Assembly (NCBI RefSeq): GCF_017549005.1 | Contig: NZ_JAFYYT010000029.1 | Span: 266-64,265, forward strand | DNA: 64,000 nt | DNA from: Ruminococcus sp. | GTDB taxonomy: Bacteria > Bacillota > Clostridia > Oscillospirales > Ruminococcaceae | Direction: 5' to 3' | In this document: one piece after another, positions 11,249 to 42,532 of the stretch | How the letters are laid out: each line of letters starts with the position of its first letter | Position numbering within the stretch: position 1 is the first letter of the stretch | Position numbers and translations under genes: made by a program | Notes under the pieces: model-generated | Database searches by the model: none | What the model saw: only the letters and a program-made list of their open reading frames with translations | What the model was told of the DNA's origin: nothing

Positions 11249-11302
11249 GCTATCACCACACTTATTGTTTTATAATTCATTAACCCTATCCTGAGCTTTT
11301 TA

Positions 11303-18138: not shown

Positions 18139-18164
18139 AATTAAAGTTTTTACACACTTAAAAA

Positions 18165-18195
18165 ATAGCATAAGCATTAGCTTGTGCTATTTTTA
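18165..18195 (+). terminator. Intrinsic terminator
   Basis: ATAGCATAAGC-ATTA-GCTTGTGCTAT hairpin followed by TTTT. Confidence 0.55.
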
Positions 18196-18360
18196 TTATA
18201 CATGATATCATATTTTAATTATATACTTTTTAGCTGAAAATCGGTTTGAACAAACACTGAATTTAAGATAAGTTTAAGATTATTTTAAGCTTTGTTCATT
18301 ATTATGTAAGTATCATATAGCGACAATCTCATTATCTGTATTATAGGAGGAATGATTAAA

Positions 18361-21306
18361 ATGAGAAAGAAGCATTTACTGGCAGGTCTTCTGTCAGCAC
18401 TTGTTCTCGGAACTGCTTCGGCTGCAACAGCTGCTGCCGCTGACGGTCTCTACGGCGACGCCAACTGCGACGGAAACGTAGATATGTCAGATGCAGTGCT
18501 TGTTATGCAGGCACTCGCCAATCCGGGAAAATACGGCGTCAACGGCACTGACGCAAAGCACATCACACAGAAGGGCATCGACCTTGCTGACGTTTGCGAA
18601 AACGGCAACGGTCTCACATCAAACGACGCCCTTTCTATCCAGAATTATCTTTTAGGCAACGTCAAGAATCTTCCCGAATCCTACAAGCAGGGTTCAGTTC
18701 AGACAACGACCACAGTTAATCCGGGACAGACCACAACGACTACCACAAAGCCGGTCAATACTGTTCCTCAGGAAGATGTCAACACAGTTATCCACCTCAA
18801 GGGTTCTTCTATCACTGTGGAAGGCAAATATGCAACCGCCAACGGTTCAAAGGTAACTATCTCCCACTCGGGTACATATACTATCGACGGTACTCTCAAC
18901 GACGGTCAGATCTATGTTGAGGTTCCCGATGAAAAGGCTGATCCCGACACAGTCAAGCTCGTATTCAACGGCGTTAACATTACAGGCAAGAGCGCCCCTG
19001 CAGTTCTTATCAAGAACGCAGACAAGACCTCTATCACTGTAGCTGACGGAACAGAGAACATCATTTCCGACGGCACCAACGCTTATGCCGGCGACGAGCT
19101 CGAGAGCGCAGTTCTCGAAGCTAAGGACGACCTTACTATCAAGGGCGGCGACAACGGCACCGGAAAGCTCACTATCAATGCTAATATCCAGCCTGCTGTC
19201 GTTTGCAACAACGACCTCAAGCTCACAGGCGGCGTGCTCAGCATCAACACTCTCAATGAAAACAAGGAAGCTTCACCTGACGCTGTAAAGGGCAAGGGCT
19301 CAGTAACAGTAAAGGGCGGCACTATAGATATCACCTCAAAGGGCGACGGTATCAAGTCCTCAAAGGGCGAAGTCGTTATCGAGGGCGGCACACTTGTCAT
19401 CAAGGCAAGCAAGGACGCTGTACAGGCTGAGACAGATATCACTATCTCAGGCGGCGATATCGCAGCATTCGGCGACAAGGGCCTCACAGCAGTGGGCAAT
19501 GTGAATATCACAGGCGGCAATGTTCTCGTTACCGCAAAGGATAATCAGTGCGAAACTATCAAGTCCACAGAACAGGCAACAATGGTTCTCGACTTCACAA
19601 AGGAGTGGGCAAAGAACAATCCTATCGCTGTTACCGATTCTTCCAACAAGGTGATCCTTGAGCAGAATCCGCCCAAGAAGTACAAGTACGCTATCGTTTC
19701 TTCACCTGACATCGCTTCCGGCGACTTTAAGGTATTCGCAGGCGGTATCAAGATGAAGCACAGCAGCGGCAGCACCTTCAAGGCAGGCAAGCCAGCCAAG
19801 TTCACAGACGTAAACAACGATATGGAGAACGAGGAGCAGCTCTATGAGAGTCTCTTCAGTCAGACAGTCGTTCACAAGATCGACGTTCAGATGAACGAGA
19901 GCACATGGCAGAACATGATGAACAATGCCAGCAAGGAAGAGTGGACTCCCTGTGACGTTACTATCGACGGCGAGACAATAAAGAACGTTGCTATCAGAAC
20001 CAAGGGCAACAGCTCACTCATGATGGCTCAGAACGGCAAGTACAGTCTCCGTCTCAAGCTCGACAAGTACGACAAGACCAACAACTACCACGGACTCACT
20101 GAGTTCTGTATGAACAATATGCTCTCAGACGCTTCATGTCTCAGAGATATCCTCTGCTACAACGCTATGTATGAAGTAGACGGCGTAGCTCCTCATGCAG
20201 CTCATACCGATATGTACCTCAACGGCAAGCTTTACAGCTTCTATCTCCTTGCAGAGCAGCCGGGCGACACACTTGCAGAGCGCTATGGCATCGACGATGA
20301 TACAGTTCTCTACAAGGCTACCGAGAGAAACGGCGGCGGCGGCGGATTCGGCTTCGGCGGCGACGGCTACTGCTCGTTCACAGAGAAGATGCCTCTTGAC
20401 AACTTCGATGTAAAGTTCGGTGCTGACGATAACTATGCACACATTCAGGATATAAAGACTGCTATAAACAAGCTTTCTTCCACAAACTACAAGTTCATCG
20501 AGGACGTTATCGACGTACCGAGCTTCCTCAAGGGCTTCGCAGTAAACTCTATTTTCTGCAACTACGACAGCTACAACGGCTCGCTTGCACATAACTACTA
20601 TCTCATCTACACAGGCGGCAAGGCATACTTCGTAGGCTGGGACTACAACCTCGCAATGGGCAACTTCATGGGCGGTGCTGATTCAGTTAACTCTGATATC
20701 ACAACAAGCCTCTACCAGGCAACTATCACAGACCGTCCTCTCGCAAAGCTCCTTCAGGTGCCGGAGTACTATGATATGTACGTAGGCTATGTAAAGGATA
20801 TCCTTAACCTTTACAGCAATCCCGAGCAGTACATCAGCAACTATGCTAAGAATATCCGTTCACACGTTCAGGCTGATCCGAGATTTGAATTCACTCTTGA
20901 CCAGTTTGACTCCAACACCTCAAGAAGCGCTAACGGCCTCCAGACAAGCGGCGGCGGTCAGCAGCAGGGTGGCTGGAACATGGGCGGCCAGCAGCAGGGC
21001 GGTCAGCAGCAAGGCGGCTGGGACATGGGTCAGCAGGGTGGCTGGAACATGGGCGGCTTCCAGATGAACTCCGATGAGCCTCAGGACGGCTACGTAACAG
21101 TTGTCGGCGATGACTGGGCATTCCAGGGCGGCTTCGGCGGCGGCGGAATGAACTGGGGCGGCGGAGGCGGCTTCGGCGGAGGCGGCGGCTTCGGCGGCTT
21201 TGGCGGCTTCGGCGGCGGCGGCGGAATGTTCGGCGGCGGAAATATCTCCGTTGTTGACTTCCTGGAAGCAAGATTCCAGATAATCCGCAGCGCACTTCGT
21301 ATGTAA
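18361..21306 (+). CDS. Dockerin (N-terminal) + Cthe_2159-like beta-helix carbohydrate-binding domain + CotH kinase-family domain + Gly/Gln-rich tail
   Basis: Signal peptide followed by dockerin GDANCDGNVDMSDAVLVMQALANP...NGLTSNDALSIQNYLLG. The stretch 'VTISHSGTYTIDGTLNDGQIYVEV...VKLVFNGVNITGKSAPAVLIKNADKTSITVADGTEN' is typical of the Cthe_2159 family. CotH-like region: 'VHKIDVQMNESTWQNMM...CDVTIDGETIKNVAIRTKGNSS...YSLRLKLDKY...HNYYLIY'. AGGAGGA favours the second ATG at 18361. Confidence 0.85.
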   Translation: MRKKHLLAGLLSALVLGTASAATAAAADGLYGDANCDGNVDMSDAVLVMQALANPGKYGVNGTDAKHITQKGIDLADVCENGNGLTSNDALSIQNYLLGNVKNLPESYKQGSVQTTTTVNPGQTTTTTTKPVNTVPQEDVNTVIHLKGSSITVEGKYATANGSKVTISHSGTYTIDGTLNDGQIYVEVPDEKADPDTVKLVFNGVNITGKSAPAVLIKNADKTSITVADGTENIISDGTNAYAGDELESAVLEAKDDLTIKGGDNGTGKLTINANIQPAVVCNNDLKLTGGVLSINTLNENKEASPDAVKGKGSVTVKGGTIDITSKGDGIKSSKGEVVIEGGTLVIKASKDAVQAETDITISGGDIAAFGDKGLTAVGNVNITGGNVLVTAKDNQCETIKSTEQATMVLDFTKEWAKNNPIAVTDSSNKVILEQNPPKKYKYAIVSSPDIASGDFKVFAGGIKMKHSSGSTFKAGKPAKFTDVNNDMENEEQLYESLFSQTVVHKIDVQMNESTWQNMMNNASKEEWTPCDVTIDGETIKNVAIRTKGNSSLMMAQNGKYSLRLKLDKYDKTNNYHGLTEFCMNNMLSDASCLRDILCYNAMYEVDGVAPHAAHTDMYLNGKLYSFYLLAEQPGDTLAERYGIDDDTVLYKATERNGGGGGFGFGGDGYCSFTEKMPLDNFDVKFGADDNYAHIQDIKTAINKLSSTNYKFIEDVIDVPSFLKGFAVNSIFCNYDSYNGSLAHNYYLIYTGGKAYFVGWDYNLAMGNFMGGADSVNSDITTSLYQATITDRPLAKLLQVPEYYDMYVGYVKDILNLYSNPEQYISNYAKNIRSHVQADPRFEFTLDQFDSNTSRSANGLQTSGGGQQQGGWNMGGQQQGGQQQGGWDMGQQGGWNMGGFQMNSDEPQDGYVTVVGDDWAFQGGFGGGGMNWGGGGGFGGGGGFGGFGGFGGGGGMFGGGNISVVDFLEARFQIIRSALRM

Positions 21307-31145: not shown

Positions 31146-33575
31146 TTATTGCAGATCGCCCAGCTGAGTTGCTGCACCGATAAATAACGGTACGTTGTTC
31201 TTGTCAACTATCATGTACACGAACGGTCTGTCAAGATATATGTATACCTCTTTCTTCGGTTCCGGCATTATTTCACATCCGGCTGCCATTCCTACAGCTG
31301 TTACGGCTGCTGCCTTTGTGCCTGATTCTGTCAGCTCTATCTTTGTCTTATGAAGTACCGTGGAAATATACAGGGGATCGGCTCCCTCAACGGAAAGATC
31401 GTTTATCTTTGAGAAATCAGCTCCGCCGCTGAAAGCTGTGGGCATTCCCATTTCCTTGAGGAAATCGTTCAGCGTCTTTCCGTAATCGTACTCGAACTTC
31501 GGTATCATAGTGTAAAGGTCAATACTATCGGGGTCCTCACATTCGCTGAGACCTGCAAGGAGCTTCTCGGCGTCAAGATTCTTCACATATTCAACTATAT
31601 CATTGTCACGGGGAAGTATTCCCACAAAGCTGTAATCGCCGCCTGCATAGGGCTTCTTGAAAGCGTCTGCGTCGCCGAGGTCGAAGTACTCGCGCTCCTG
31701 GCTGATAAGCTGCTTTATCGTGCGCTTATTGCCGTTAAGGTCTGTGAACTTGCCGTCGGGAGCCCAATCATACTGATTCTGCCATTCCGCCTCGAAATAC
31801 AGGGTATTTATGAGCATCATGAGCATTTCTTCATTTTCTGTGGGTTCAAGGGAGTCCTTTTCGAGGAGAGTCGGTATCATGCCCTCGGTGTTCCTGCTTA
31901 CCCAGCTGTTTATATCGGCAACTGTATCGTTGTTGAATGCAGCCTTGTACAGCTCGGCGTTATAGTACTCCTTATTCTTTTCAAGGAATTCATCATAGAC
32001 CTTGAATGTTTCCTTGTCCTTGAACCATATGGAGTCCGCCATATATACCTTTTCCTTGTCCTTCTTAGGAAGATTCCTTATATAGCCCGCCATGTACTCG
32101 TTGAGCTGACCGACAGTAAGTCCGTTTCCGAGGACCTTCTCCATTTCATCGAGTGTCTTGCCGTCAGCTCCGTTTGCGGTCATAGTAAGAGCTGCCGATA
32201 TGGAAACAGGCGAGATAAGCATATTCTCCTCTTTCTGTTTAGTAGGGTCAAATGCCTTTTTCAGCAGCTCTATGCCAAGATTCATCTCTGCAGCTGCAAA
32301 TTTTTCATCTGCTGTCCTGCCCTCGGCTGCCTGTACGCTTACCTTGTCGTCAAGGCGGACGCTGCTCATCGGGGTGGAAGTATCAGTGTTTTCCGACTTC
32401 TTGTCAAGCTCATACAGCAGACCGTCAAGGCTGAAGGCTTCCTCATATATCATCTTGTACCAGGGCTTCAGCGGATTCCTGATGAACATATTTCCCATAT
32501 GCCATACAGTTACAGTATCTCCGCCCTCATATTCAAGATCGATAGTCCAGCTTGTGCCATTATAATGATCGGGATTTTCGGAGAAATTGGTTATGAGGTG
32601 CAGCCCCGAGAGATAATCGGCTACAGCCTGAGCTTTCTCACCTTCAAATGTATACTTTCTCGTGCCCATCATGCCCGTTACAACAGCGCTTTTTATCTTG
32701 CCGTCTTTCAGTCCGAGGAGATCTGCCGCAGACTGTCCCTCGCTTATATCAAAGCCGAGAAGCTGTTTCTGTATGCTCTGCGCGTCGCCAACTGTCAGTC
32801 CGTCACCGTTGAAGTCGCCGTTTTCCTTGCCCTGAGCGGTAAGGTGGTTGTCGGCAGTACCGTTTTCGCCGTATTTATTGGGATTTGCAAGAGCCTGCAT
32901 AATAAGCACGGCGTCTGCCATATCTACTGTGCCGTCACAGTTTACGTCGCCCTTTAGCACATCATGATCGGGAGACGTGCTCGTTCCAATCGTTTCATCT
33001 GTATCTGCACCGAGATAATCAAAATAGAAATAACAGAAATGTTTATTGAGCTGTACATAATTCATAGCAGCCGCCAGAAGCTCCGCTTCTTCATCTTCGT
33101 CCTTAACCTTTGGAATAATCGCAAACTGAGCACATTTATTACCGTTACACGTCATTGCCTGCTTATGCCTGATATCAAATAATTTCTCTGGAAGAGCAGC
33201 CTCTTCTTTTATTTTTTCATCGTCAAGGACTTCTCCGAACTGATCGCCCTCATAAAGCACATTTACAATTTCATTCTGTATAATATCATTTACCTTTCCA
33301 ATCTCTCTATTTAATCTCTCTTTTGTCCATAATGTGCATTCTACACCGCTTGTCTTTTCTTTTTCATCAAGCAAGGCTTTCACTTCATCGGCTGACAGCT
33401 TGCTAAACTCGTCAAAGGTATACTCCTTTTCCGACTTTTCATCAGCTGTAGTCAGTGAAGCAGTTATATCCGTATCACTGTCTGCGTTGTCTGCATTTGC
33501 GAACGTCAATGCAGACGATGCTGCCGTCATCACTGCTGCCATTAATGCCGCAATGATCTTTTGTGATTTTCTCAT
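31146..33575 (-). CDS. Cellulosomal serpin: unknown N-terminal module + internal dockerin + unknown module + C-terminal serpin domain
   Basis: Signal peptide; dockerin GDVNCDGTVDMADAVLIMQALANPNKYG...GDGLTVGDAQSIQKQLLG. Serpin motifs: 'ISPVSISAALTMTANGADGKTLDEM', 'LINTLYFEAEWQ', an inhibitory-type hinge 'ESGTKAAAVTAVGMAAG' and 'LDRPFVYMIVD'. RBS spacing favours the ATG at 33575. Confidence 0.85.
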   Translation of the reverse strand: MRKSQKIIAALMAAVMTAASSALTFANADNADSDTDITASLTTADEKSEKEYTFDEFSKLSADEVKALLDEKEKTSGVECTLWTKERLNREIGKVNDIIQNEIVNVLYEGDQFGEVLDDEKIKEEAALPEKLFDIRHKQAMTCNGNKCAQFAIIPKVKDEDEEAELLAAAMNYVQLNKHFCYFYFDYLGADTDETIGTSTSPDHDVLKGDVNCDGTVDMADAVLIMQALANPNKYGENGTADNHLTAQGKENGDFNGDGLTVGDAQSIQKQLLGFDISEGQSAADLLGLKDGKIKSAVVTGMMGTRKYTFEGEKAQAVADYLSGLHLITNFSENPDHYNGTSWTIDLEYEGGDTVTVWHMGNMFIRNPLKPWYKMIYEEAFSLDGLLYELDKKSENTDTSTPMSSVRLDDKVSVQAAEGRTADEKFAAAEMNLGIELLKKAFDPTKQKEENMLISPVSISAALTMTANGADGKTLDEMEKVLGNGLTVGQLNEYMAGYIRNLPKKDKEKVYMADSIWFKDKETFKVYDEFLEKNKEYYNAELYKAAFNNDTVADINSWVSRNTEGMIPTLLEKDSLEPTENEEMLMMLINTLYFEAEWQNQYDWAPDGKFTDLNGNKRTIKQLISQEREYFDLGDADAFKKPYAGGDYSFVGILPRDNDIVEYVKNLDAEKLLAGLSECEDPDSIDLYTMIPKFEYDYGKTLNDFLKEMGMPTAFSGGADFSKINDLSVEGADPLYISTVLHKTKIELTESGTKAAAVTAVGMAAGCEIMPEPKKEVYIYLDRPFVYMIVDKNNVPLFIGAATQLGDLQ

Positions 33576-33599: not shown

Positions 33600-34598
33600 T
33601 TATTGCCGCGGGGGTATTGTTTTTATTATTTCGTAAATATCCATGCCGCTTCTGCAGTACAGATAATACTCTTCATTCTCCTGAAACCTTATTGCAACAG
33701 CGTCATCACCGACATAACCGCTGACAGCGTATACGTCTGCCGAACACTTCTTTTCCTCGCCTGCGATACGCTGACCGCTGAGCATTTCCGCGCTGTCTGT
33801 CCATGCTCCCACTACATCGGGCGAGATCATGTACAGGCTGTTGTAGACATAGTCACTGCCGTAAATGTATGCATATGGATAGCGCTCGTTTATCGGAAGC
33901 TGTAACCATTGCTGCTCCTCATAGCCGCTGTCGTCTCCGCCTGAACCGCCGCCACTCATGCCGCCTGTTCCGCCTCCGAAACCGCTGCCTCCGCCGCTGT
34001 AGCCGCCTGCACCGCCGTTCTGACCGCCGTTATTGCCGTCGCCTGTAAGGCCGCCGTTTCCGCCGTCATCACCGCCCGGAACTTCGTCTGTCCTTGTGGT
34101 GGTTACTTCCCGTGTAGTCACCGTATTGGCTGCCGTAGTTGCAGATGTCACGGTAGTTTTCAATGTAGTTTCAGCTGTAGTGCGCTCAGTAGCCGCTGCT
34201 GTCGTTACACGAGTTGAAGCCTTCTGCGTGGTATCTGCCGCTGTAGCCACATCAGTTTTTGCTGTAGTGACAGTGGTCGCCGATACAGTCGTTTTTGTGC
34301 CGCTCTTTTCGGCTGTGGTCACAGCTGTTGTGCGGGCCGTGGCTGCTCTTGTTGTGGTAATGGGCATAGCTGTGCCCTGTACGGAGGTCGTTTCCGCTTC
34401 TATGATATTATCAGGGACAGGAATCGTATCGGGACGGGTATGACCCTTCCATACGCCAAAACCGATAATAACAGCACCTATCACGCCTGCCGCCGCAGGT
34501 ATCACCCTTTTGGCAACAGCTTTCCTGTGCTTTCTCTTTTTCTCGGTTTCATCGCGGACTTCAAGTACATATTTTGCCATTTCTTCATATGTTTTCAT
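33600..34598 (-). CDS. Single-pass membrane protein with Thr/Gly-rich extracellular linker; putative anti-sigma/sensor partner of the upstream ECF sigma
   Basis: Start 'MKTYEEMAKYV' at 34598, overlapping the sigma gene end by 14 nt. About 35 cytoplasmic aa with a KKRKHRK stretch, then TM segment AAAGVIGAVIIGFGVW, a T-rich and G-rich linker, and a ~100-aa C-terminal domain. Paralogue of 40912..41730. Confidence 0.6.
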   Translation of the reverse strand: MKTYEEMAKYVLEVRDETEKKRKHRKAVAKRVIPAAAGVIGAVIIGFGVWKGHTRPDTIPVPDNIIEAETTSVQGTAMPITTTRAATARTTAVTTAEKSGTKTTVSATTVTTAKTDVATAADTTQKASTRVTTAAATERTTAETTLKTTVTSATTAANTVTTREVTTTRTDEVPGGDDGGNGGLTGDGNNGGQNGGAGGYSGGGSGFGGGTGGMSGGGSGGDDSGYEEQQWLQLPINERYPYAYIYGSDYVYNSLYMISPDVVGAWTDSAEMLSGQRIAGEEKKCSADVYAVSGYVGDDAVAIRFQENEEYYLYCRSGMDIYEIIKTIPPRQ

Positions 34599-35139
34599 AT
34601 TTGAAGCCCCCCTTTTCAAGTTCTGTCCTAAGTGCCTTCCTTGCATTATACAGGAGATTTTCTATCTGTTTTCTTGACCTTCCGATGATCTTTGCAGTTT
34701 CCTCATTGCTGAACTCCTCGAAATAGGTAAGGTACAGCACCTGCTGATACTCCTCCTTTAGCCTGCATATAGCATGGCGGAGGTTTATCTTCTGCTCGCT
34801 GACAAGATAGCTCTGTTCAAGGTCGGCTTCGTCCGCAAGTATACCGCAGTCGCTGAGAGGTACTCCCCTGTTTCTGCGGAGCTTTCTCACGTTGTCTATA
34901 GCGATATTCCTGCCGATAGTGTAAAGCCAGGTCTTGAATGAGCTTTTGCCGTTGAATCTCGGCTTCTTCACGGCGAGCCTGATAAAGGTATCCTGCACGC
35001 AGTCCTCGGCTGCGCTGATATCATCGGTATAACTACGCAGATACAGCATGAGACCGTCCCTGAACTCACGGACTATCTCGACCATACCGCTGTCATCGCC
35101 TGCAAGGAAACGGCGGTAGCTACTTTCACCGTTATCCAT
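34585..35139 (-). CDS. ECF-type sigma-70 family RNA polymerase sigma factor (paralogue 1)
   Basis: 184 aa. Region 2: 'EDCVQDTFIRLAVKKPRF...FKTWLYTIGRNIAIDNVRK'. Region 4: 'YQQVLYLTYFEEFSNEETAKIIGRSRKQIENLLYNARKAL'. Confidence 0.9.
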   Translation of the reverse strand: MDNGESSYRRFLAGDDSGMVEIVREFRDGLMLYLRSYTDDISAAEDCVQDTFIRLAVKKPRFNGKSSFKTWLYTIGRNIAIDNVRKLRRNRGVPLSDCGILADEADLEQSYLVSEQKINLRHAICRLKEEYQQVLYLTYFEEFSNEETAKIIGRSRKQIENLLYNARKALRTELEKGGFKYENI

Positions 35140-35176
35140 GTATGGACTCCTTTCGCGTCTGATCCTGCGCTCTTTA

Positions 35177-35213
35177 CATATTAGACGTAACGAGAGCGGA
35201 AAAACACTAAGCT
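35177..35213 (-). promoter_or_regulatory. Conserved bipartite motif (candidate ECF-dependent promoter) upstream of sigma paralogue 1
   Basis: Minus strand reads AGCTTAGTGTTTTTCCG-CTCTCGTT-ACGTCTAATATG. The 17-mer and the 11-mer recur identically, with the same 8-nt spacing, at 37272-37307. 'CGTC' matches the ECF -10 core. Confidence 0.55.
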
Positions 35214-35309
35214 GATTTCAGGTTAAAATAAAAAATTATGTAAGAATGGTTCGTTCGCTAATATTAATCTAACATCTATACTGCGGATTGTCAATAGTTT
35301 TACGGAAAT

Positions 35310-35346
35310 AAAAAAAGCTCCGCTCACCGAAGCAAGCAGAGCTCAT
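35310..35346 (-). terminator. Intrinsic terminator after 35353..37185
   Basis: Minus strand reads GAGCTCTGC-ttgcttcggtga-GCGGAGCTT followed by TTTTTTTATTT. Confidence 0.6.
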
Positions 35347-35352
35347 ATCGTT

Positions 35353-37185
35353 TTATTGTGCGCTATTTTCAAGAAGAGCCTTTTTCATCGCTGTCAGGTC
35401 AAATACGTCGAGCTTGTTATCCGCGCAGAGGTCTGCGGATCTCCAGTTTACAAGCTTCGCGCCGTCAGCTCCGAGGAGCCACCTTTGCAGGGCTACGATG
35501 TCGCAGATGTCGAAGATAGCGTCACCGTTCACATCGCCTCTGAACGCTGCATAAGACGTTGCGCCCATTCCCTCAAAATGAATGCCCTCACAGCATGATC
35601 TGAGCTGCACGTAATTAAGCATTGCGGTATAAAGCGTGACCGCCGTTTCCCTGTCGTCGGCATAAGGCTTTATGACACAATTGCAGTACTTTCTGTATAT
35701 TGGACCTGTCTCCTCATTTCCTGTAAGGCAGGTCATTGAAACAGACGGTTGTATATCAAAAAGCTCGGGAGAAAGCTCGAGTGCAGAGTATATCTTGCCG
35801 ATATCCCATATAACGTCGCCGTCTTCGATAAGCTCATGCATATCATCTGCACTGTAGACCTCTGTCACAAGCTCTTCTCCGTTTCCGGCGGTCATAAACG
35901 GCTTCGGGTCGAGCTGTACCTGATAGAAGCCGTTGCTGAGAACGGTCTCGGGCTTATAAATGTGATATCCCTTTTCCCATGTCATGCCCTTTGCTTCGTA
36001 AAGCGCCTCTATTTCAGCCGTTGTCATACTGCGGATATCCTCGAAAGTATAGTCCTTATCGGCATTTATTACAGATGTATCTGTCTCTGACAGCTGATCA
36101 TCCTTTACGCTGTCAACGGAATAGACCTTTTTCATATACACCGTGATCTCATTCTGTTCCGGGGAGGTAAAGCAGAATGGGGTCTGCGACTTTTCTTCAT
36201 CAATTACATAACAATAGTTCCTGTTTTCAACATATGAAAACGCCCAATGATATACGATACTTATATAATTATTCAATATAACGTCCTCAATGACAAATGG
36301 ATTGTTTTCGTTTACATTCCATTCATCAAGAGAGACACATCCGCCGAAAAACGGGTCTGAAGGCATGATCATTGAAGAAGAATAGGCGTTGAATACAACA
36401 TCCTTGCCTTTGGGATCGCTGAAAAGCTCATTTGTCTCCTCGTCGATAACTGTGACTTTGATATCTCCGTATTCGACCTTATCCTCTCTCGGGAGCTTAT
36501 GTACATATACCGTTATATCGTTAACTTTCTCCTTGACCTGCCATAAAAATGCACTGGAATCTTTGGCATAGTCTATTGCATAATAATAATCGTCGTCCCT
36601 CATGTAGTATGTGTCGTTCACAATACTACCTGCAGTGTTTAACGGTACATTTTTCAATGTAAGCGGATTGCAGAGAGCAGCATCCCAATTAACGCGGAGG
36701 TCGGAAATACTGAACAGACTGTGCTCTGTGAAAAGCTCATTCGTATCTTCATCAATGACAGTGATGTTGACTGTCCCACAGTTGTCGTTCTGCTTTATTG
36801 GCTCTTTCTTCATGTATATTGTAATATTATATGTTTCTTCGCTTTTGTCGTAAAAGAACTGCGAATTTGTCGTCTTGTAATCTATACTGTACTTATATCC
36901 GTCATACTCCCTCGCTGCACAGTCTGAAACGACAACATAGCTTGCTTCCTTTAAAACGTTCTTTACGGTAAAGGGATTGCTCTCCAAGGTGTTCCAGCTC
37001 TCGTCACATGGAAGTATACTGAAACAGCAGTCCAGGTCAAAAAGCTCGTCCGTCTCCTCATCGATAACGGTAACTATCATGTCTCCGTACTCTCGTTGTA
37101 TCCTCTTTGCCTCCGCACTTGGAACGCACATCATCGACAAAGCAAATACCGATGACATAATAAACGCCAGTATTCTTTTCCTCAT
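35353..37185 (-). CDS. Dockerin protein with three tandem ~100-aa repeats and a module shared with the serpin protein
   Basis: Signal peptide. The repeats begin YGDMIVTVIDEETDELF, CGTVNITVIDEDTNELF and YGDIKVTVIDEETNELF, and each ends ...ITIYMKKEP / ITVYVHKLP / ITVYMKKVY. The module '...YTFEDIRSMTTAEIEALYE...LYTAMLNYVQLRSCC' is homologous to serpin-protein residues '...YTFDEFSKLSADEVKALLD...LLAAAMNYVQLNKHFC'. C-terminal dockerin: GDVNGDAIFDICDIVALQRWLLG...DNKLDVFDLTAMKKALL. Confidence 0.8.
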   Translation of the reverse strand: MRKRILAFIMSSVFALSMMCVPSAEAKRIQREYGDMIVTVIDEETDELFDLDCCFSILPCDESWNTLESNPFTVKNVLKEASYVVVSDCAAREYDGYKYSIDYKTTNSQFFYDKSEETYNITIYMKKEPIKQNDNCGTVNITVIDEDTNELFTEHSLFSISDLRVNWDAALCNPLTLKNVPLNTAGSIVNDTYYMRDDDYYYAIDYAKDSSAFLWQVKEKVNDITVYVHKLPREDKVEYGDIKVTVIDEETNELFSDPKGKDVVFNAYSSSMIMPSDPFFGGCVSLDEWNVNENNPFVIEDVILNNYISIVYHWAFSYVENRNYCYVIDEEKSQTPFCFTSPEQNEITVYMKKVYSVDSVKDDQLSETDTSVINADKDYTFEDIRSMTTAEIEALYEAKGMTWEKGYHIYKPETVLSNGFYQVQLDPKPFMTAGNGEELVTEVYSADDMHELIEDGDVIWDIGKIYSALELSPELFDIQPSVSMTCLTGNEETGPIYRKYCNCVIKPYADDRETAVTLYTAMLNYVQLRSCCEGIHFEGMGATSYAAFRGDVNGDAIFDICDIVALQRWLLGADGAKLVNWRSADLCADNKLDVFDLTAMKKALLENSAQ

Positions 37186-37271
37186 AAAAACACTCCTTTT
37201 TATTGATTTCCCGTTCCCTTTCTGTATTTATCTCATTTATCTGCTTTCAGCTCAGGTTTTACACCCTGCAT

Positions 37272-37307
37272 ATATTAGACGTATGCAAGTCGGAAAAACA
37301 CTAAGCT
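37272..37307 (-). promoter_or_regulatory. Second copy of the conserved bipartite motif, upstream of 35353..37185
   Basis: Minus strand reads AGCTTAGTGTTTTTCCG-ACTTGCAT-ACGTCTAATAT, about 87 nt upstream of the start codon at 37185. Confidence 0.55.
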
Positions 37308-37441
37308 TTTCTGGTGTTAAACAATAAAAATATCACGCATGCCGTATGTCACTTTAAATATAGCAATATTTCGAGAAATTGTCAATATCAATGAATAATT
37401 TTCTTTTTTTGACATATATTATACCGAAAGGGTGATGATTT

Positions 37442-39447: not shown

Positions 39448-40899
39448 TTAATGGCATTCAATTACAACGACCGCAGGCTGTGTTGCAACAGGTTCACCGT
39501 CAGTCGTTACAGGTGAAGTTTTCGTGTCATAGCTTGATATATTATCAAGCGACAACGCCTTGAGTTCAGCCTCAGTTACATTAATTACAAGTTCATCTGC
39601 CGCCTCATCATACTCATAGCTGATGTTCTGCTCCTTCAGCTTCTGAACGGAGATCTGCTTCATATCATGATAGTACGCTTTTATCGCTTCTGACAGGTTC
39701 TCCTGCGGAGCATAATCGAACTTTGCGATATCTTCTTCAACTTTTTTACGAAGGAACTTACCGTCCACGATATACTTTGCAAGGAAATCCCCGCCGTAAA
39801 ACGCAACTCTCTCCTCATACAGCGACTTAGCCCATATCTCGCCGTTTCCGTCGCCTGTTGTGTAAAGAGCTTCACCGTATTTCAGCTTCTCGCCCTCCTT
39901 GTCCAGCTGTATAAGCTTGTCAAAGAGGTGAGAGTTCTCGTCTCTCTCGTCTGCATATTTCTGTATGGTCATGCCCTTGTATTCATAATCGTAATCAAGC
40001 TTAAAGCCAGGAACAACACTGAAAACCGTATTCGGATCAGTATTATTCTTCAAAAGCTCGTACAGCTCATAGGTCACAGCGACTCCGTCCACACTTGATA
40101 ACCCAGCCACCTGAGACTGCAATTCCTGACGGAGTTTCTCCTCATCAAAGGGAACATACTTCTTATTCCAGTTGACTGTCTGTCCCTTGTATTCGGACTT
40201 TGGAACAGCTATCTGCGCGAAGCATACCGAGAACATATCGTCCTCTCCGTGTTTTCTTACATAGTCCTCTATGCAGATATCTATCGTACTGTCAGAAAAA
40301 GTGATATCTCCTATTCCGTAAAGCGGTCTGTCTGAGCCTGCTCCTTGCGGAATGGTATTGAGAAGAAGAATGTTTTCGCCGAAATAGCTTTCATCATATT
40401 TGGAAAGATATTTTGATACAATGTGCTCATAGTACAGCGGTTCGAGGTATGCTTTAAGCTCGGCGGTATTTGTAACTACGGCTTTTAATATCTCAGCATT
40501 CCATGTTACATTCCTATAATCATCAGACGCAGGATACCATACAAGCTCTTTGCCGTACTTGGCATCAACGGTCTCTTTTATGCCGAGGAGCTTTTTCTGT
40601 ATAGCCTGCGCGTCGCCAACGGTAAGTCCGTCGCCGTCCGTGTCGGCATTTGCCCTGCCCTGAGCTGTAAGATGAAGCTGCTCTGTGCCGTTTTCACCGA
40701 ATCTGTTCGGGCTTGCAAGAGCCTGCATTATAAGCACTGCATCCGCCATATTTACCGTTCCGTCGCAGTTTGCGTCGCCTTTAACTGTTGAAGCAGCCGT
40801 GGCTGAAACATCATTTGCCATAGCTGCACCCGGAATACAAGCAGCTCCCATACAGCAAGTTACAGCCGTTAGCATTGCGATAAACCTCTTGTTTTTCAT
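39448..40899 (-). CDS. N-terminal dockerin protein with uncharacterised ~370-aa C-terminal region
   Basis: Signal peptide; dockerin GDANCDGTVNMADAVLIMQALASPNRFG...GDGLTVGDAQAIQKKLLG. I do not recognise any domain in the remainder. AAGGAG RBS. Third gene of sigma cassette 2. Confidence 0.8.
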   Translation of the reverse strand: MKNKRFIAMLTAVTCCMGAACIPGAAMANDVSATAASTVKGDANCDGTVNMADAVLIMQALASPNRFGENGTEQLHLTAQGRANADTDGDGLTVGDAQAIQKKLLGIKETVDAKYGKELVWYPASDDYRNVTWNAEILKAVVTNTAELKAYLEPLYYEHIVSKYLSKYDESYFGENILLLNTIPQGAGSDRPLYGIGDITFSDSTIDICIEDYVRKHGEDDMFSVCFAQIAVPKSEYKGQTVNWNKKYVPFDEEKLRQELQSQVAGLSSVDGVAVTYELYELLKNNTDPNTVFSVVPGFKLDYDYEYKGMTIQKYADERDENSHLFDKLIQLDKEGEKLKYGEALYTTGDGNGEIWAKSLYEERVAFYGGDFLAKYIVDGKFLRKKVEEDIAKFDYAPQENLSEAIKAYYHDMKQISVQKLKEQNISYEYDEAADELVINVTEAELKALSLDNISSYDTKTSPVTTDGEPVATQPAVVVIECH

Positions 40900-40911
40900 A
40901 AGATCACTCCT

Positions 40912-41730
40912 TTACTTTTTTGATTCTTTAAAAGGCAGTTTCCTTGTAAACGGTATCTGTTCTCCTTTTTTTATTGCGACAACTATATCATCGGATTCAA
41001 GTATTGTATAGAACTTTACTGTCGGATTGTCATGGAAAATGCCTTCAAAATCTGTACCATAACCGAGAAATTCATCAAGAGTATATTCATTTTTCCCGTC
41101 ATCCCCACTGTCATCAGTTCCAATATAGTAGTAAGTAACTCCGTCAATGTAAACTTTTGAGAAAACCCCACCCATGTTATTACCGCCTGAAGTAGTTATC
41201 ACAGAAGTTGTAATATGTGCATCATCATGTGTAGTTAAAGTTGTATTGGCACTGCTTTGAGTTGTCATTGTAACGTTCACTGATGTTTCAATAACAGAAG
41301 TCTGCTGAGTGGGCGGTTCTGTCACGGGAGCAGCAGTGGTTTCGGTCGTATTTGCCTCTGTTGTTTCGGTATTTGTGCTTGTTTTCACAGCGGAAGTCGT
41401 TTCTTTTTCCGTCTTAGATGTCCCAGTCACGGTAGTTTTTGCGGTCTTTGTGGCTGAGACAGTGGTTTTAGAGGAAGTCCTTACCGTCGGCACCTGCGAA
41501 GTCGATTCAGCAGCAGTTGTCGGAACTTCTATAATAATATCAGGTGACGATGGTATAGACGGGATATTCCTCGAGTAGTTCCAGTACCCCAGTCCCAGCC
41601 CTACAGTCAGGCACAGACAGGCAATAACAGGAACAGTATGCATGATTATACGCTTCTGCCGTTCTTTTTTCTTTATGTGTTCGGTTCGTCTGGAAAGGAC
41701 ACTCTGATACATTTCAAAATCATTCTTCAT
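40912..41730 (-). CDS. Single-pass membrane protein with Thr/Ser-rich linker; putative anti-sigma/sensor partner (paralogue 2)
   Basis: Start 'MKNDFEMYQSV' at 41730, analogous to MKTYEEMAKYV in paralogue 1, overlapping the sigma gene end by 11 nt. Basic stretch KKKERQKR, TM segment VPVIACLCLTVGLGLGYW, T/S-rich linker and a small C-terminal domain. Confidence 0.6.
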   Translation of the reverse strand: MKNDFEMYQSVLSRRTEHIKKKERQKRIIMHTVPVIACLCLTVGLGLGYWNYSRNIPSIPSSPDIIIEVPTTAAESTSQVPTVRTSSKTTVSATKTAKTTVTGTSKTEKETTSAVKTSTNTETTEANTTETTAAPVTEPPTQQTSVIETSVNVTMTTQSSANTTLTTHDDAHITTSVITTSGGNNMGGVFSKVYIDGVTYYYIGTDDSGDDGKNEYTLDEFLGYGTDFEGIFHDNPTVKFYTILESDDIVVAIKKGEQIPFTRKLPFKESKK

Positions 41731-42271
41731 ATTCAAAGCCGCCCCTTTCCAGTTCAGTTTTCAGAGCCTTTCTGGCGTTGTACAGCAAGGTCTCAATCTG
41801 CCTTTTCGATTTTTTCATGATAATAGCAGTTTCCTCGTTGCTGAATCCCTCAAAATATGACAGATACAATACCTGTCGGTATTCTGTTTTCAGGCTGTGC
41901 AAAGCCTTATGAACAGCTCTCTTTTGTTCGCTTTTTATGTAATTGCCTTCGATGCTTTTCTCGTCGGCAAGATTTTCCTGCGATTCCAGCGGAACGATGA
42001 TGAATTTGGCGCGTTTTCGCAGATGTTTTGCGGTAATATTGCGCCCAATGGCGTAAAGCCACGTCTTAAAGGAGCTTTTTTCCGAAAACTTCGGACAGCG
42101 TATGGCGAGCTCCGCAAATGTGTCCTCGGTCATCTCCTCAGCTGTGCGGATATTCTGCACGAAGCTGTTGATGTACAGTATCAGACCCTGTCGGTATTCG
42201 CGGATTATCTCGTGGAGCCCTTCATCATCACCTGCAAGGAAACGGCGGTAGCTACTTGCACCGTTATCCAT
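41720..42271 (-). CDS. ECF-type sigma-70 family RNA polymerase sigma factor (paralogue 2)
   Basis: 183 aa, collinear with 34585..35139. Compare MDNGASSYRRFLAGDDEG... with MDNGESSYRRFLAGDDSG..., 'SSFKTWLYAIGRNI' and 'YRQVLYLSYFEGFSNEETAIIMKKSKRQIETLLYNARKAL'. Confidence 0.9.
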   Translation of the reverse strand: MDNGASSYRRFLAGDDEGLHEIIREYRQGLILYINSFVQNIRTAEEMTEDTFAELAIRCPKFSEKSSFKTWLYAIGRNITAKHLRKRAKFIIVPLESQENLADEKSIEGNYIKSEQKRAVHKALHSLKTEYRQVLYLSYFEGFSNEETAIIMKKSKRQIETLLYNARKALKTELERGGFEYEE

Positions 42272-42532
42272 GGGGAGATTCCTCCTCTCAGGGGTATTGA
42301 TTTATCCCTTTCATTTATTAGTACCTTTTTTTCGTCAGAACTCAAAGTTTTTTCAAATATTATTTATTTTTAACTATTATATCACAGTCAAATTCACATT
42401 GCAATGTATTTTGTGTTAATAATAGCTCTAAATAGCCAGTTCGCTGATAAAGCACTTAAATATACAGAACCTGCACATAATATATAATGTATACCACCGC
42501 CGTTAAGCAGAGCAGCTATTTTGGTTTTTCCA

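What the first reader, a model, noticed from the sequence alone, without database searches (positions are those of the whole stretch)
35177..37307. Identical bipartite motif upstream of sigma paralogue 1 and of the neighbouring dockerin gene: putative regulon signature
On the minus strand, AGCTTAGTGTTTTTCCG-N8-ACGTCTAATAT occurs twice. One copy (35213-35177) lies ~40 nt upstream of the sigma-1 start and the other (37307-37272) ~87 nt upstream of gene 35353..37185. The 17-mer and 11-mer blocks are identical and have identical spacing, while the 8-nt spacer differs (CTCTCGTT versus ACTTGCAT). The downstream block contains CGTC, the hallmark ECF -10 core. This fits an autoregulated ECF promoter. 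A related but distinct sequence, ...TTTGAGTTCTGACG-N-GGTACTAATAAATG (42348-42312, minus), sits at the equivalent distance (~41 nt) upstream of sigma paralogue 2, suggesting diverged promoter specificity. If this is correct, sigma-1 controls at least 35353..37185 and its own three-gene operon.
Basis: seen in the sequence. Interest (0 to 1): 0.62.

Follow-up and report, generated by a model that had tools for sequence, protein, structure and literature searches.

The report
ECF promoter pair controlling dockerin genes
Two identical promoter sequences in a rumen Ruminococcus genome most likely let one alternative sigma factor switch on its own operon (including a cellulosome-bound protease inhibitor) and the neighbouring cellulosome gene. 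They belong to a family of 10-21 such switches per genome, each with its own promoter code, in a lineage whose cellulosome regulation is still unexplained.

Summary
AGCTTAGTGTTTTTCCG-N8-ACGTCTAATAT occurs at 35178-35213 and 37272-37307 (minus strand) and nowhere else in the 3.33-Mb genome.

Both copies read as ECF-type promoters: -35 TTAGTG plus a T-tract, a 17-nt spacer, and -10 CGTCTAAT. One lies 38 nt before the sigma-1 ATG and the other 86 nt before the dockerin gene 35353-37185.

- In 9 other species of the genus the same two blocks, with free spacers, precede sigma-1 orthologues (8 cases) or a dockerin-serpin (1 case). One species keeps the two-promoter layout.
- The genome holds 10 paralogous sigma/anti-sigma operons. 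They share the -10 but carry clade-specific -35 hexamers, which track the sigma tree and residues of the region 4.2 helix.
- All eight extra matching sites precede dockerin genes.
- Sigma-2's distinct motif is conserved in its orthologues.

No transcription start or sigma dependence could be measured, because only patchy metatranscriptome contigs exist.

The sigma is a generic ECF. The anti-sigma has a short conserved N-terminal helix and matches no known domain. RsgI/SigI is absent.

Verdict: a genuine, probably autoregulated ECF promoter pair. It belongs to an apparently undescribed ECF network wired to non-enzymatic cellulosome components.

The parts
35178..35213 (-). P_sig1: predicted sigma-1 (ECF) promoter. 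The -35 TTAGTG is at 35205-35210 with a T-tract at 35200-35204. A 17-nt spacer follows. The -10 CGTCTAAT is at 35180-35187. The motif ends 38 nt before the sigma-1 ATG.
   Evidence: Exact pattern match and sequence read. The blocks are conserved before sigma-1 orthologues in 8 other species.
37272..37307 (-). P_doc610: second, block-identical copy of the promoter. The -35 TTAGTG is at 37299-37304 and the -10 CGTCTAAT at 37274-37281. The motif ends 86 nt before the ATG of the dockerin gene.
   Evidence: An equivalent site with 1 mismatch lies before the neighbouring dockerin gene in G157 (L067 3335-3366).
35353..37185 (-). doc610: secreted 610-aa protein with three ~100-aa repeats, a ~170-aa module and a C-terminal dockerin. 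It is the predicted second transcription unit of the sigma-1 regulon.
   Evidence: Pfam Dockerin_1 at residues 550-605. Signal-peptide-like N-terminus. The module is homologous to the serpin N-terminus.
35315..35344 (-). Intrinsic terminator (13-bp stem plus a T-run) that ends the doc610 transcript before P_sig1.
35266..35294 (-). Housekeeping-type promoter-like site TTGACA-17-TAGATT (TG-extended), about 50 nt upstream of P_sig1. It is a candidate basal promoter.
   Evidence: 10 of 12 matches. Analogous sites lie upstream of most paralogues (sequences, read by eye).
37357..37385 (-). Housekeeping-type promoter-like site TTGACA-17-TATATT (TG-extended), about 50 nt upstream of P_doc610.
   Evidence: 11 of 12 matches.
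34585..35139 (-). sigma-1: a 184-aa ECF sigma factor with sigma2 and sigma4 domains only.
   Evidence: Pfam Sigma70_r2 at 59 bits and Sigma70_r4_2 at 46 bits. NCBIfam: only the superfamily model TIGR02937 passes its cut-off. The closest solved structure is SigW (5wuq, E 9e-14).
33600..34598 (-). anti-sigma-1 (inferred), 332 aa. It has a conserved ~30-aa N-terminal helix, one transmembrane segment, a Thr-rich and Gly-rich linker, and a ~100-aa C-terminal domain. Its start overlaps the end of the sigma gene by 14 nt.
   Evidence: No Pfam or NCBIfam family matches. The N-terminal module is shared by gene 2 of all ten paralogous operons.
31146..33575 (-). Dockerin-serpin, the third gene of the sigma-1 operon. 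No terminator separates it from anti-sigma-1.
   Evidence: Pfam Serpin at 253 bits and Dockerin_1. The sigma/anti-sigma/serpin order is conserved in G054, G157, G012 and in the C11 paralogue.
42312..42348 (-). P_sig2: predicted promoter of sigma paralogue 2. The -35 TTTGAG is at 42341-42346, followed by a 16-nt spacer. The -10 GTACTAAT is at 42317-42324, and the motif ends 40 nt before the ATG.
   Evidence: The motif is conserved before sigma-2 orthologues L017 and L026. No second copy was found in this genome.
39448..42271 (-). Sigma-2 operon: sigma-2 (41720-42271), anti-sigma-2 (40912-41730) and a 483-aa dockerin protein (39448-40899).

Best explanation
The two copies are promoters read by RNA polymerase carrying sigma-1, the ECF sigma factor encoded at 34585-35139.

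Proposed recognition (inferred): region 4.2 of sigma-1 contacts the -35 element TTAGTG and its T-tract, and region 2 contacts the -10 element CGTCTAAT 17 nt downstream.

P_sig1 drives sigma-1, its membrane-bound anti-sigma and a dockerin-serpin, giving positive autoregulation. P_doc610 drives the monocistronic dockerin gene next door. Housekeeping-type promoters about 50 nt upstream of each probably give a basal level.

At rest the short N-terminal helix of the single-pass anti-sigma is assumed to hold sigma-1 at the membrane. An unknown extracellular signal acting on its ectodomain would release sigma-1, and both units would be induced together.

The pair is one node of a family of paralogous ECF switches: 10 in this genome and up to 21 in relatives. 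They share the -10 box but have clade-specific -35 hexamers, and their few targets are dockerin-bearing, mostly non-enzymatic cellulosome proteins.

Shown here: the sequences, their uniqueness, their conservation, their covariation with the sigma, and the nature of the target genes. Inferred: transcription starts, sigma dependence, anti-sigma binding and the signal.
For: 1. The match is exact and unique. There are two copies in the window with none expected, and two in the whole genome under loose matching.

2. Selection acts on the blocks only. Between the two copies the blocks are 28/28 identical, the spacer 2/8, the 38 nt downstream 18/38 and the 27 nt upstream 16/27.

3. There is a phylogenetic footprint. 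TTAGTGTTTTT-N12-CGTCTAA occurs in 10 of 162 genomes of the genus, against 1 hit for the reversed control. Eight of the 9 foreign hits lie 40-42 nt before a sigma-1-clade sigma gene (six of them clear sigma-1 orthologues, 76-92% identity where measured), and one lies directly before a dockerin-serpin. In the 12-sequence alignment CTTAG, TTT, C and TCTAAT are invariant while the spacer is free.

4. The layout is conserved. G157 has P (1 mismatch), a 645-aa dockerin protein, P (0 mismatch), sigma (90% identity), anti-sigma and dockerin-serpin. The paralogous C45 locus has the same layout, and both of its sites use the CATCTAAT variant.

5. The pattern holds across the family. All ten paralogues have a CGTC-type box 45-53 nt before the ATG, with differing -35 hexamers. 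Of the 20 CGTCTAAT words in the genome, 13 sit in such promoters, 7 before sigma genes and 6 before dockerin genes. The eight non-sigma sites that match a sigma's own promoter all precede dockerin proteins. Dockerins mark only about 141 ORFs in the genome.

6. Sigma and promoter covary.
- The -35 class changes 8 times on the tree of 51 sigmas, against a mean of 27.9 and a minimum of 23 in 300 shuffles.
- The region 4.2 helix differs by class: KQIENLLYNARK with TTAGnn, RQIENLLYRAK with TGAGAG, RQITYLLYRAK with TGCAAC and RQVGDLLYRAK with TGCGAw.
- The residue after FKTWLYxIGR is N with CGTC in 32 of 37 cases, and F, H or Y always goes with CGAC or AGAC (11 of 11).

7. A terminator separates doc610 from P_sig1, so two promoters are needed.

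8. No Rfam family covers the motif.
Against: - No transcription start or expression dependence could be obtained. The only RNA data are patchy metatranscriptome contigs.
- The -35 hexamer TTAGTG lacks the AAC core typical of most characterised ECF promoters.
- Housekeeping-type promoter-like sites lie just upstream of both copies, so the genes could be transcribed without the motif.
- The assignment of the motif to sigma-1 rather than to the close paralogues on C11 (TTAGTC) and C45 (TTAGGG, CATC) rests on adjacency and covariation only, so cross-talk is possible.
- Gene 2 is called an anti-sigma from position, overlap and architecture. It matches no anti-sigma domain model.
- The covariation counts are not corrected for shared ancestry beyond the tree-based shuffle.
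- The genome is a 94%-complete MAG, so the regulon may be larger.
Confidence: 0.8

Rival explanations
1. The motif is a shared promoter of the sigma-1 sub-clade rather than of sigma-1 alone. The close paralogues on contig C11 (82% identical; own site TTAGTC...CGTCTAAT) and contig C45 (65% identical; TTAGGG...CATCTAAT) also read it. The 'regulon' would then be a cross-talking network and not an insulated circuit.
For: The three promoters differ at only 2 of 20 specified positions. Overlap between ECF regulons is well known in Bacillus subtilis and was seen for SigI factors (PMC4711584).
Against: Each paralogue's own two sites agree with each other better than with the others. Sigma-1's two sites are 28/28 identical, and both C45 sites use CATC. 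The region 4 helices differ between sigma-1 and the C11 paralogue: GRSRKQIENL against GRSVKQIKNL.
Confidence: 0.1
2. The two blocks are the operator of a different DNA-binding regulator (a repressor or activator). Transcription would come from the housekeeping-type promoters 50 nt upstream.
For: TTGACA-17-TATATT and TTGACA-17-TAGATT sites lie upstream of both copies. The motif would then sit in the early transcribed region, where roadblock repressors can act.
Against: The blocks are neither palindromic nor direct repeats. The downstream block carries the ECF -10 hallmark CGTC at ECF spacing. The motif class covaries with residues of the adjacent sigma's DNA-reading helices across 51 family members. 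Its distance to the sigma ATG is fixed at 45-53 nt.
Confidence: 0.06
3. The second copy is a neutral relic of a local duplication of the sigma promoter region and has no present function.
For: Weak homology extends beyond the blocks. The doc610 leader keeps GAAAGCAG where the sigma leaders have the ribosome-binding site GAAAGGAG. P_doc610 therefore probably did arise by duplication of P_sig1.
Against: The blocks are 28/28 identical, while the spacer (2/8) and the leader (18/38) have decayed to near-random. The equivalent site is kept in G157, although that dockerin protein is only ~30% identical. Six further dockerin genes carry sites that match other paralogues.
Confidence: 0.03
4. The motif acts at the RNA level, as a leader element of transcripts that start at the upstream housekeeping-type promoters.
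For: It would be transcribed from those promoters. Small hairpins are common in the leaders downstream of it.
Against: The two blocks can form only 4 base pairs with each other (TTAG/CTAA). Other classes such as TGAGAG have no such complementarity. There is no Rfam match. The conservation pattern, two blocks around a free 8-12 nt spacer, is that of a promoter.
Confidence: 0.01

Closest known systems
Autoregulated ECF sigma operons of Bacillus subtilis (sigW-rsiW, sigM, sigX, sigV-rsiV)
   Same: - A two-domain sigma (sigma2 plus sigma4) is co-transcribed with, and translationally coupled to, a single-pass membrane anti-sigma.
- The sigma has its own promoter with a CGTC-type -10 and a 16-17 nt spacer with a T-rich start.
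- A housekeeping promoter lies upstream of the ECF one.
- Regulons are small and defined by promoter similarity.
- SigW is the closest solved relative.
   Different: - The -35 is TTAGTG, not the (T)GAAAC/GCAAC type.
- The sigma fails the cut-offs of the SigW, SigM, SigV, SigX, SigY and SigZ models.
- The anti-sigma has only a ~30-aa cytoplasmic helix and no recognised anti-sigma or RsiV-type domain.
- The targets are cellulosome (dockerin) proteins, not envelope-stress genes.
- The family is expanded to 10-21 copies with diversified -35 codes.
SigI/RsgI multi-paralogue system of Clostridium (Acetivibrio) thermocellum and relatives (PMC4711584, PMC6056542)
   Same: - Many paralogous sigma/anti-sigma pairs occur in one cellulosome producer.
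- The anti-sigma N-terminal module is conserved and is joined by a Thr-rich linker to variable ectodomains.
- The sigmas are autoregulated.
- Regulons of dockerin genes can be recognised from the similarity of target promoters to the sigma's own promoter.
   Different: - Here the sigma has a canonical sigma4 domain, not the SigI-C domain.
- No RsgI_N domain is found. There is none over the cut-off in the whole genome.
- The promoter is hexamer-17-CGTCTAAT, not AAA...CGWA.
- The predicted targets are serpins, LRR, CotH-like and unknown dockerin proteins rather than glycoside hydrolases and scaffoldins.
- Reviews state that Ruminococcus lacks the RsgI system (PMC11557425).
Orthogonal ECF sigma/promoter sets (crosstalk map of ECF sigmas; PMC3817407)
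   Same: Promoter specificity is set by the combination of -35 and -10 elements, which are read by sigma4 and sigma2. Different ECFs in one cell are insulated by different -35 elements.
   Different: That work compared different ECF groups from many bacteria. Here the diversification lies within one young paralogue family of one genus, with a nearly constant -10 and a varying -35.
ECF sigma/anti-sigma pairs of Bacteroides polysaccharide utilisation loci (PMC3463488)
   Same: Expanded ECF families are dedicated to glycan-degrading surface machinery, with one pair per locus.
   Different: The Bacteroides systems use FecR-type anti-sigmas and TonB-dependent transducers in a Gram-negative envelope. 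None of these is present here.

Membership tests
ECF (group IV) sigma factor with autoregulated promoter | The sigma consists of sigma2 and sigma4 domains only and is about 170-200 aa long. | tested here: met
   184 aa, with Sigma70_r2 (59 bits), Sigma70_r4_2 (46 bits) and Sigma70_ECF (31 bits). TIGR02937 scores 99 bits against a cut-off of 43.
ECF (group IV) sigma factor with autoregulated promoter | A promoter upstream of the sigma's own gene has a CGT(C)-type -10 placed 16-17 nt after a -35 element. | tested here: met
   TTAGTG-17 nt-CGTCTAAT ends 38 nt before the ATG. It is conserved in orthologues.
ECF (group IV) sigma factor with autoregulated promoter | The -35 element contains the AAC core found in most characterised ECF promoters. 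| tested here: not met
   The -35 is TTAGTG. Within the family only one clade has TGCAAC. AAC is a frequent feature of ECF promoters, not a universal one (my own knowledge; PMC3817407 shows group-specific -35 elements).
ECF (group IV) sigma factor with autoregulated promoter | The sigma is co-transcribed with a cognate anti-sigma factor that carries a recognised anti-sigma domain. | tested here: inconclusive
   The overlapping downstream gene encodes a single-pass membrane protein whose N-terminal ~30 aa are conserved in all ten paralogues. No Pfam or NCBIfam anti-sigma model matches it.
ECF (group IV) sigma factor with autoregulated promoter | Transcription starts downstream of the -10 and depends on the sigma. 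| not testable with these tools
   Only assembled metatranscriptome contigs were available, and they give no 5' ends.
SigI/RsgI biomass-sensing system | The sigma has a SigI-C domain in place of sigma4. | tested here: not met
   A canonical Sigma70_r4_2 domain is present.
SigI/RsgI biomass-sensing system | The anti-sigma has an RsgI_N domain. | tested here: not met
   The anti-sigma has no Pfam hit. PF12791 has no match over its cut-off in the whole genome, while the control was found in B. subtilis.
SigI/RsgI biomass-sensing system | The promoter has an AAA extended -35 and a CGWA -10. | tested here: not met
   The motif is TTAGTG...CGTCTAAT, against the SigI consensus quoted in PMC4711584.
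SigV/RsiV, SigM, SigW and other named Firmicutes ECF subfamilies | The score exceeds the curated NCBIfam cut-off of the subfamily model. | tested here: not met
   SigM_subfam scores 104 against 148, SigV 65 against 190, SigW 76 against 209, SigX 66 against 260, SigY 63 against 194 and SigZ 68 against 169.
ECF classification 2.0 group (Casas-Pastor 2021) | The sigma is assigned by the group HMMs of that classification. | not testable with these tools
   The HMMs are not available here. The main text of the paper mentions neither Ruminococcus, dockerin nor serpin.

The most novel reading that the evidence does not exclude
The 10-21 paralogous ECF sigma/anti-sigma pairs of Ruminococcus flavefaciens-group bacteria would be the ruminococcal counterpart of SigI/RsgI. 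They would form an insulated 'promoter-code' network with a shared CGTCTAAT -10 and clade-specific -35 elements read by a diversified region 4.2 helix.

Each anti-sigma ectodomain would report a different state of the cellulosome or its surroundings. In two of the ten cases here the ectodomain is itself a dockerin that would plug into the cellulosome. Each switch would turn on a few accessory dockerin proteins.

Within that network, sigma-1 would be a protease-alarm circuit. Attack on the exposed anti-sigma would release sigma-1, which would induce cellulosome-bound serpins and the module-sharing dockerin protein next door.
Probability: 0.3. Interest if true: 0.8.

Novelty: new variant of a known kind. 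Interest (0 to 1): 0.62.

Why it matters
How ruminococci regulate their cellulosome is an open question. Recent reviews state that the polysaccharide-sensing SigI/RsgI system is confined to Acetivibrio-type producers, and that Ruminococcus must use something not yet characterised (PMC11557425, PMC12663171).

The promoter pair gives a concrete, testable wiring diagram: which sigma, which promoter bases and which target genes. It covers one node of an expanded ECF family whose outputs are dockerin proteins (serpins, LRR, CotH-like and unknown modules).

The natural set of closely related sigmas with a constant -10 and divergent -35 hexamers is also a ready-made system for two purposes. One is studying how ECF promoter specificity evolves. 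The other is building orthogonal switches.

If the anti-sigma ectodomains, some of them dockerins, sense the state of the cellulosome, that would be a new kind of feedback between an extracellular machine and transcription.

Tried and rejected
**Transcription-start mapping.** RNA runs that hold the window are assembled metatranscriptome contigs with patchy cover, and they give no 5' ends. I then tried a paralogue in a relative (L071, G041). The apparent jump in depth after its promoter turned out to come from a 180-nt dispersed hairpin repeat inserted in the leader, with many different flanks. This line gives no evidence either way.

**'CGTCTAAT is depleted genome-wide'.** The word occurs 20 times against 115 expected from base composition. 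I withdrew the claim because Markov models of order 3-5 expect 10-20. The word is simply rare. What counts is that 13 of the 20 copies sit in family promoters.

**Sensor domain of anti-sigma-1.**
- Only 4 homologues were found among 5.8 billion proteins.
- The AlphaFold model of the C-terminal domain is fair (pLDDT 73-85).
- There is no significant PDB fold match (best E 0.3).

**Shared ~160-aa module of the serpin and doc610.** The model has pLDDT 69 and no fold match (best E 0.34).

**Rfam.** Nothing was found at the motif or in the L071 insert.

**Literature.** Searches for ECF or anti-sigma together with dockerin, serpin or Ruminococcus found no description of this system. The library lacks most subscription journals, so this is not proof of absence.

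**RNA pairing between the two blocks.** I considered and rejected it. Only 4 base pairs are possible, and none in the other classes.

**My first dockerin regular expression.** It was too strict, so I replaced it with Pfam and BLAST evidence.
Full report
**Observation**

The pattern AGCTTAGTGTTTTTCCG-N8-ACGTCTAATAT is present exactly twice on the minus strand, at 35178-35213 and 37272-37307. No matches occur in 100 dinucleotide-preserving shuffles, even with three mismatches allowed.

Reading the sequence confirms the rest of the description:
- The spacers are CTCTCGTT and ACTTGCAT.
- The first copy ends 38 nt before the sigma-1 ATG.
- The second copy ends 86 nt before the ATG of 35353..37185.

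Pfam confirms the genes:
- 34585-35139 is a two-domain ECF sigma.
- 35353-37185 ends in a dockerin.
- The third gene of the sigma operon (31146-33575) is a dockerin-serpin.
- 41720-42271 is a second ECF sigma, followed by a membrane protein and a dockerin protein.

The window is part of a 3.33-Mb, 56-contig, 94%-complete assembly from rumen-type metagenomes. A close homologue of one of its proteins is named Ruminococcus flavefaciens by its source.

**Not a dispersed repeat**

With up to 4+2 substitutions and a 7-9 nt spacer allowed, the whole genome contains only these two copies.

Between the two copies the identities are as follows:
- the two blocks, 28/28;
- the spacer, 2/8;
- the 38 nt downstream, 18/38;
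- the AT-rich 27 nt upstream, 16/27.

The residual similarity includes GAAAGCAG in the doc610 leader, where the sigma leaders have the ribosome-binding site GAAAGGAG. This suggests that P_doc610 arose by duplication of P_sig1. Since then only the two blocks have been held constant.

**Anatomy**

Aligned on CGTC, each copy reads TTAGTG, then 17 nt beginning with TTTTT, then CGTCTAAT. This is ECF geometry.

A 13-bp-stem terminator (35315-35344) lies between the doc610 stop and P_sig1, so the two units need separate promoters.

About 50 nt upstream of each copy there is a near-consensus housekeeping-type site: TTGACA-17-TATATT at 37357-37385 and TTGACA-17-TAGATT at 35266-35294, both TG-extended. 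Similar sites can be seen upstream of most paralogues. A basal promoter followed by an ECF promoter is the arrangement known from several Bacillus subtilis ECF operons (my own knowledge).

**Orthologues**

The pattern TTAGTGTTTTT-N(11-13)-CGTCTAA occurs in 10 of 162 genomes of the genus, against one hit for the reversed control.
- Eight of the nine foreign hits lie 40-42 nt before a 184-aa sigma of the sigma-1 clade. Six are clear sigma-1 orthologues (76-92% identity where measured); the G126 and G164 copies are more diverged.
- The ninth, in G084, lies directly before a dockerin-serpin.

In the 12-sequence alignment CTTAG, TTT, C and TCTAAT are invariant, whereas the 8-12 nt between them vary freely.

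In G157 the whole layout is kept: a 1-mismatch site, a 645-aa dockerin protein only ~30% identical to doc610, the exact site, sigma (90%), anti-sigma and dockerin-serpin.

The sigma/anti-sigma/serpin order recurs in G054, in G012 and in the paralogous operon on contig C11.

**Paralogues**

The genome has ten members of this sigma family. Relatives have 1-21. Among 41 relatives sampled, the family was found only in this genus plus one genome of another family.

Nine of the ten have a CGTC-type box 45-53 nt before the ATG, and in the tenth (C36) it lies about 30 nt before. The -35 differs between them:
- TTAGTG for sigma-1;
- TTAGTC on C11;
- TTAGGG with CATC on C45;
- TGAGAG on C7;
- TAAGAT on C49;
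- TGCGAC on C36;
- GCGTAG on C34;
- TGCGTA on C26;
- TGAGAC with AGAC on C33;
- TTTGAG with GTAC for sigma-2.

I scanned the genome with each sigma's own promoter. Extra sites turned up for four of the nine other paralogues:
- C45: the 692-aa CotH-like dockerin gene directly upstream. Both C45 sites use CATCTAAT.
- C36: a divergent 639-aa dockerin gene and two paralogous dockerin genes on C53.
- C34: a 628-aa dockerin protein on C49.
- C7: an LRR-dockerin protein on C2 and a 379-aa dockerin protein on C53.

Together with doc610 this makes eight non-sigma sites. All eight precede dockerin-bearing proteins. Dockerin matches mark only about 141 places in the genome.

Of the 20 CGTCTAAT words in the genome, 13 sit in these promoters. 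I first took the word to be depleted, but higher-order Markov expectations (10-20) show it is simply rare.

**Covariation between sigma and promoter**

On a maximum-likelihood tree of 51 sigmas from this and related genomes, the -35 class needs 8 changes, where the minimum for 8 classes is 7. In 300 label shuffles the mean is 27.9 and the minimum 23.

The predicted DNA-reading helix of region 4.2 differs by class:
- KQIENLLYNARK with TTAGnn;
- RQIENLLYRAK with TGAGAG;
- RQITYLLYRAK with TGCAAC;
- RQVGDLLYRAK with TGCGAw;
- RQITNLLYQAK with TAAGAy.

In region 2, the residue after FKTWLYxIGR is Asn in 32 of the 37 sigmas... more precisely, 32 of the 37 Asn-bearing sigmas have a box reading CGTC. 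It is Phe, His or Tyr in all 11 whose box reads CGAC or AGAC, and these are spread over several clades.

This is what is expected if each sigma reads the motif in front of its own gene. It argues against an unrelated regulator.

**The partner protein**

Gene 2 overlaps the sigma stop by 14 nt. In all ten operons it begins with a conserved ~30-aa helix (M-K/R-x-Y...V-L/F-x-x-R-D/E-E, then a Lys/Arg-rich stretch) and one transmembrane segment. A Thr-rich linker and a variable ectodomain follow. This is the RsgI-like logic of a constant inside and a variable outside.

No anti-sigma model matches the protein, and RsgI_N is absent from the genome.

The ectodomain of anti-sigma-1 has only four homologues in the large protein collection. 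It folds with fair confidence but has no PDB fold match.

Two of the ten partners, on C49 and C26, end in Pfam-significant dockerins (47 and 63 bits). Earlier notes of this scan reported similar proteins in other genomes. I treated those notes as leads and confirmed the feature independently here.

**What could not be shown**

No transcription start could be mapped. Dependence on sigma-1, binding of the partner protein and the inducing signal are all inferred.

The -35 lacks the common AAC core. Cross-talk with the C11 and C45 paralogues is possible.

**Comparison with known systems**

Mechanistically this is a classical autoregulated ECF node. The closest solved relative is SigW, and only the ECF superfamily model passes its cut-off.

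Functionally it parallels SigI/RsgI of C. thermocellum, with many paralogues, variable sensors and dockerin-gene regulons deduced from the sigma's own promoter (PMC4711584). It fails every defining feature of that family.

Reviews state that Ruminococcus lacks RsgI-type regulators (PMC11557425; PMC12663171). I found no paper describing this ECF family, its promoter code or its link to dockerin genes, within the limits of the searchable library.

**Verdict**

My confidence in the mechanism is 0.8.
- It is a new variant of a known kind.
- Interest is moderate to high, because it gives a testable entry into ruminococcal cellulosome regulation and a natural series of -35 specificities.

Noticed in passing
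G000 contig C49 about 10030-12062 (-) and contig C26 about 17540-20406 (-), outside the window: In two of the ten paralogous operons the anti-sigma-like gene 2 itself ends in a Pfam-significant dockerin. The proteins are 676 aa (47 bits at residues 610-668, plus EF-hand-like repeats) and 772 aa (63 bits). A membrane anti-sigma that docks onto cohesins could couple cellulosome assembly to transcription.
   Followed up: partly
window 37186-37271 compared with 35140-35177: The doc610 leader keeps a decayed copy of the sigma leader, including GAAAGCAG where the sigma leaders have the ribosome-binding site GAAAGGAG. P_doc610 therefore probably arose by duplication of P_sig1. The G157 equivalent shows the same relic.
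   Followed up: partly
window 35266-35294 and 37357-37385 (-): Near-consensus TG-extended housekeeping-type promoters lie about 50 nt upstream of both ECF motifs. Similar sites lie upstream of most paralogues. This looks like a tandem basal-plus-inducible promoter architecture.
   Followed up: partly
window 32970-33437 (serpin residues 50-205) and 35542-36072 (doc610 residues 372-548): Both sigma-1 targets share a ~160-aa module just before their dockerins (28% identity). It is also present in the G157 and G054 proteins. The AlphaFold model has pLDDT 69 and no PDB fold match.
   Followed up: partly
L071 (G041:C25) 1256-1435: A 180-nt near-perfect hairpin element (MFE -93 kcal/mol) is inserted between the ECF promoter and the sigma gene. 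Other strains lack it ('skips 180'). It has very high depth and many different flanks in rumen metatranscriptomes, so it looks like a dispersed, expressed MITE-like repeat. It has no Rfam match and is absent from G000.
   Followed up: partly
G000 contig C49 82041-84100 (+) compared with contig C34 gene 2: The extra target of the C34 sigma is a 628-aa membrane protein with an internal dockerin. Its transmembrane region is homologous to that of the C34 anti-sigma, but it lacks the N-terminal sigma-binding helix. It may be a decoy or co-sensor.
   Followed up: no
Leaders between the -10 box and the ribosome-binding site of 45 family promoters, including window 35150-35175: About half of the leaders can form a small hairpin right after the predicted start (mean z -1.3 against shuffles). 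This may be a 5' stabiliser. The sequence after the -10 (TAATAAGTGAAAG-like) is also conserved.
   Followed up: partly
G000 contig C45 12343-14421 (-): The gene upstream of the C45 sigma, which carries the matching promoter, encodes a CotH kinase-like domain (111 bits) fused to a dockerin.
   Followed up: no
G000 contig C41 about 10780-10810 (-): A site resembling the C7 sigma promoter (CCTGAGAGTTTT-N12-CGTATAAT) lies 168 nt before a phosphoglucosamine-mutase-like gene. It is the only non-dockerin candidate and could equally be a housekeeping -10 (TATAAT).
   Followed up: no
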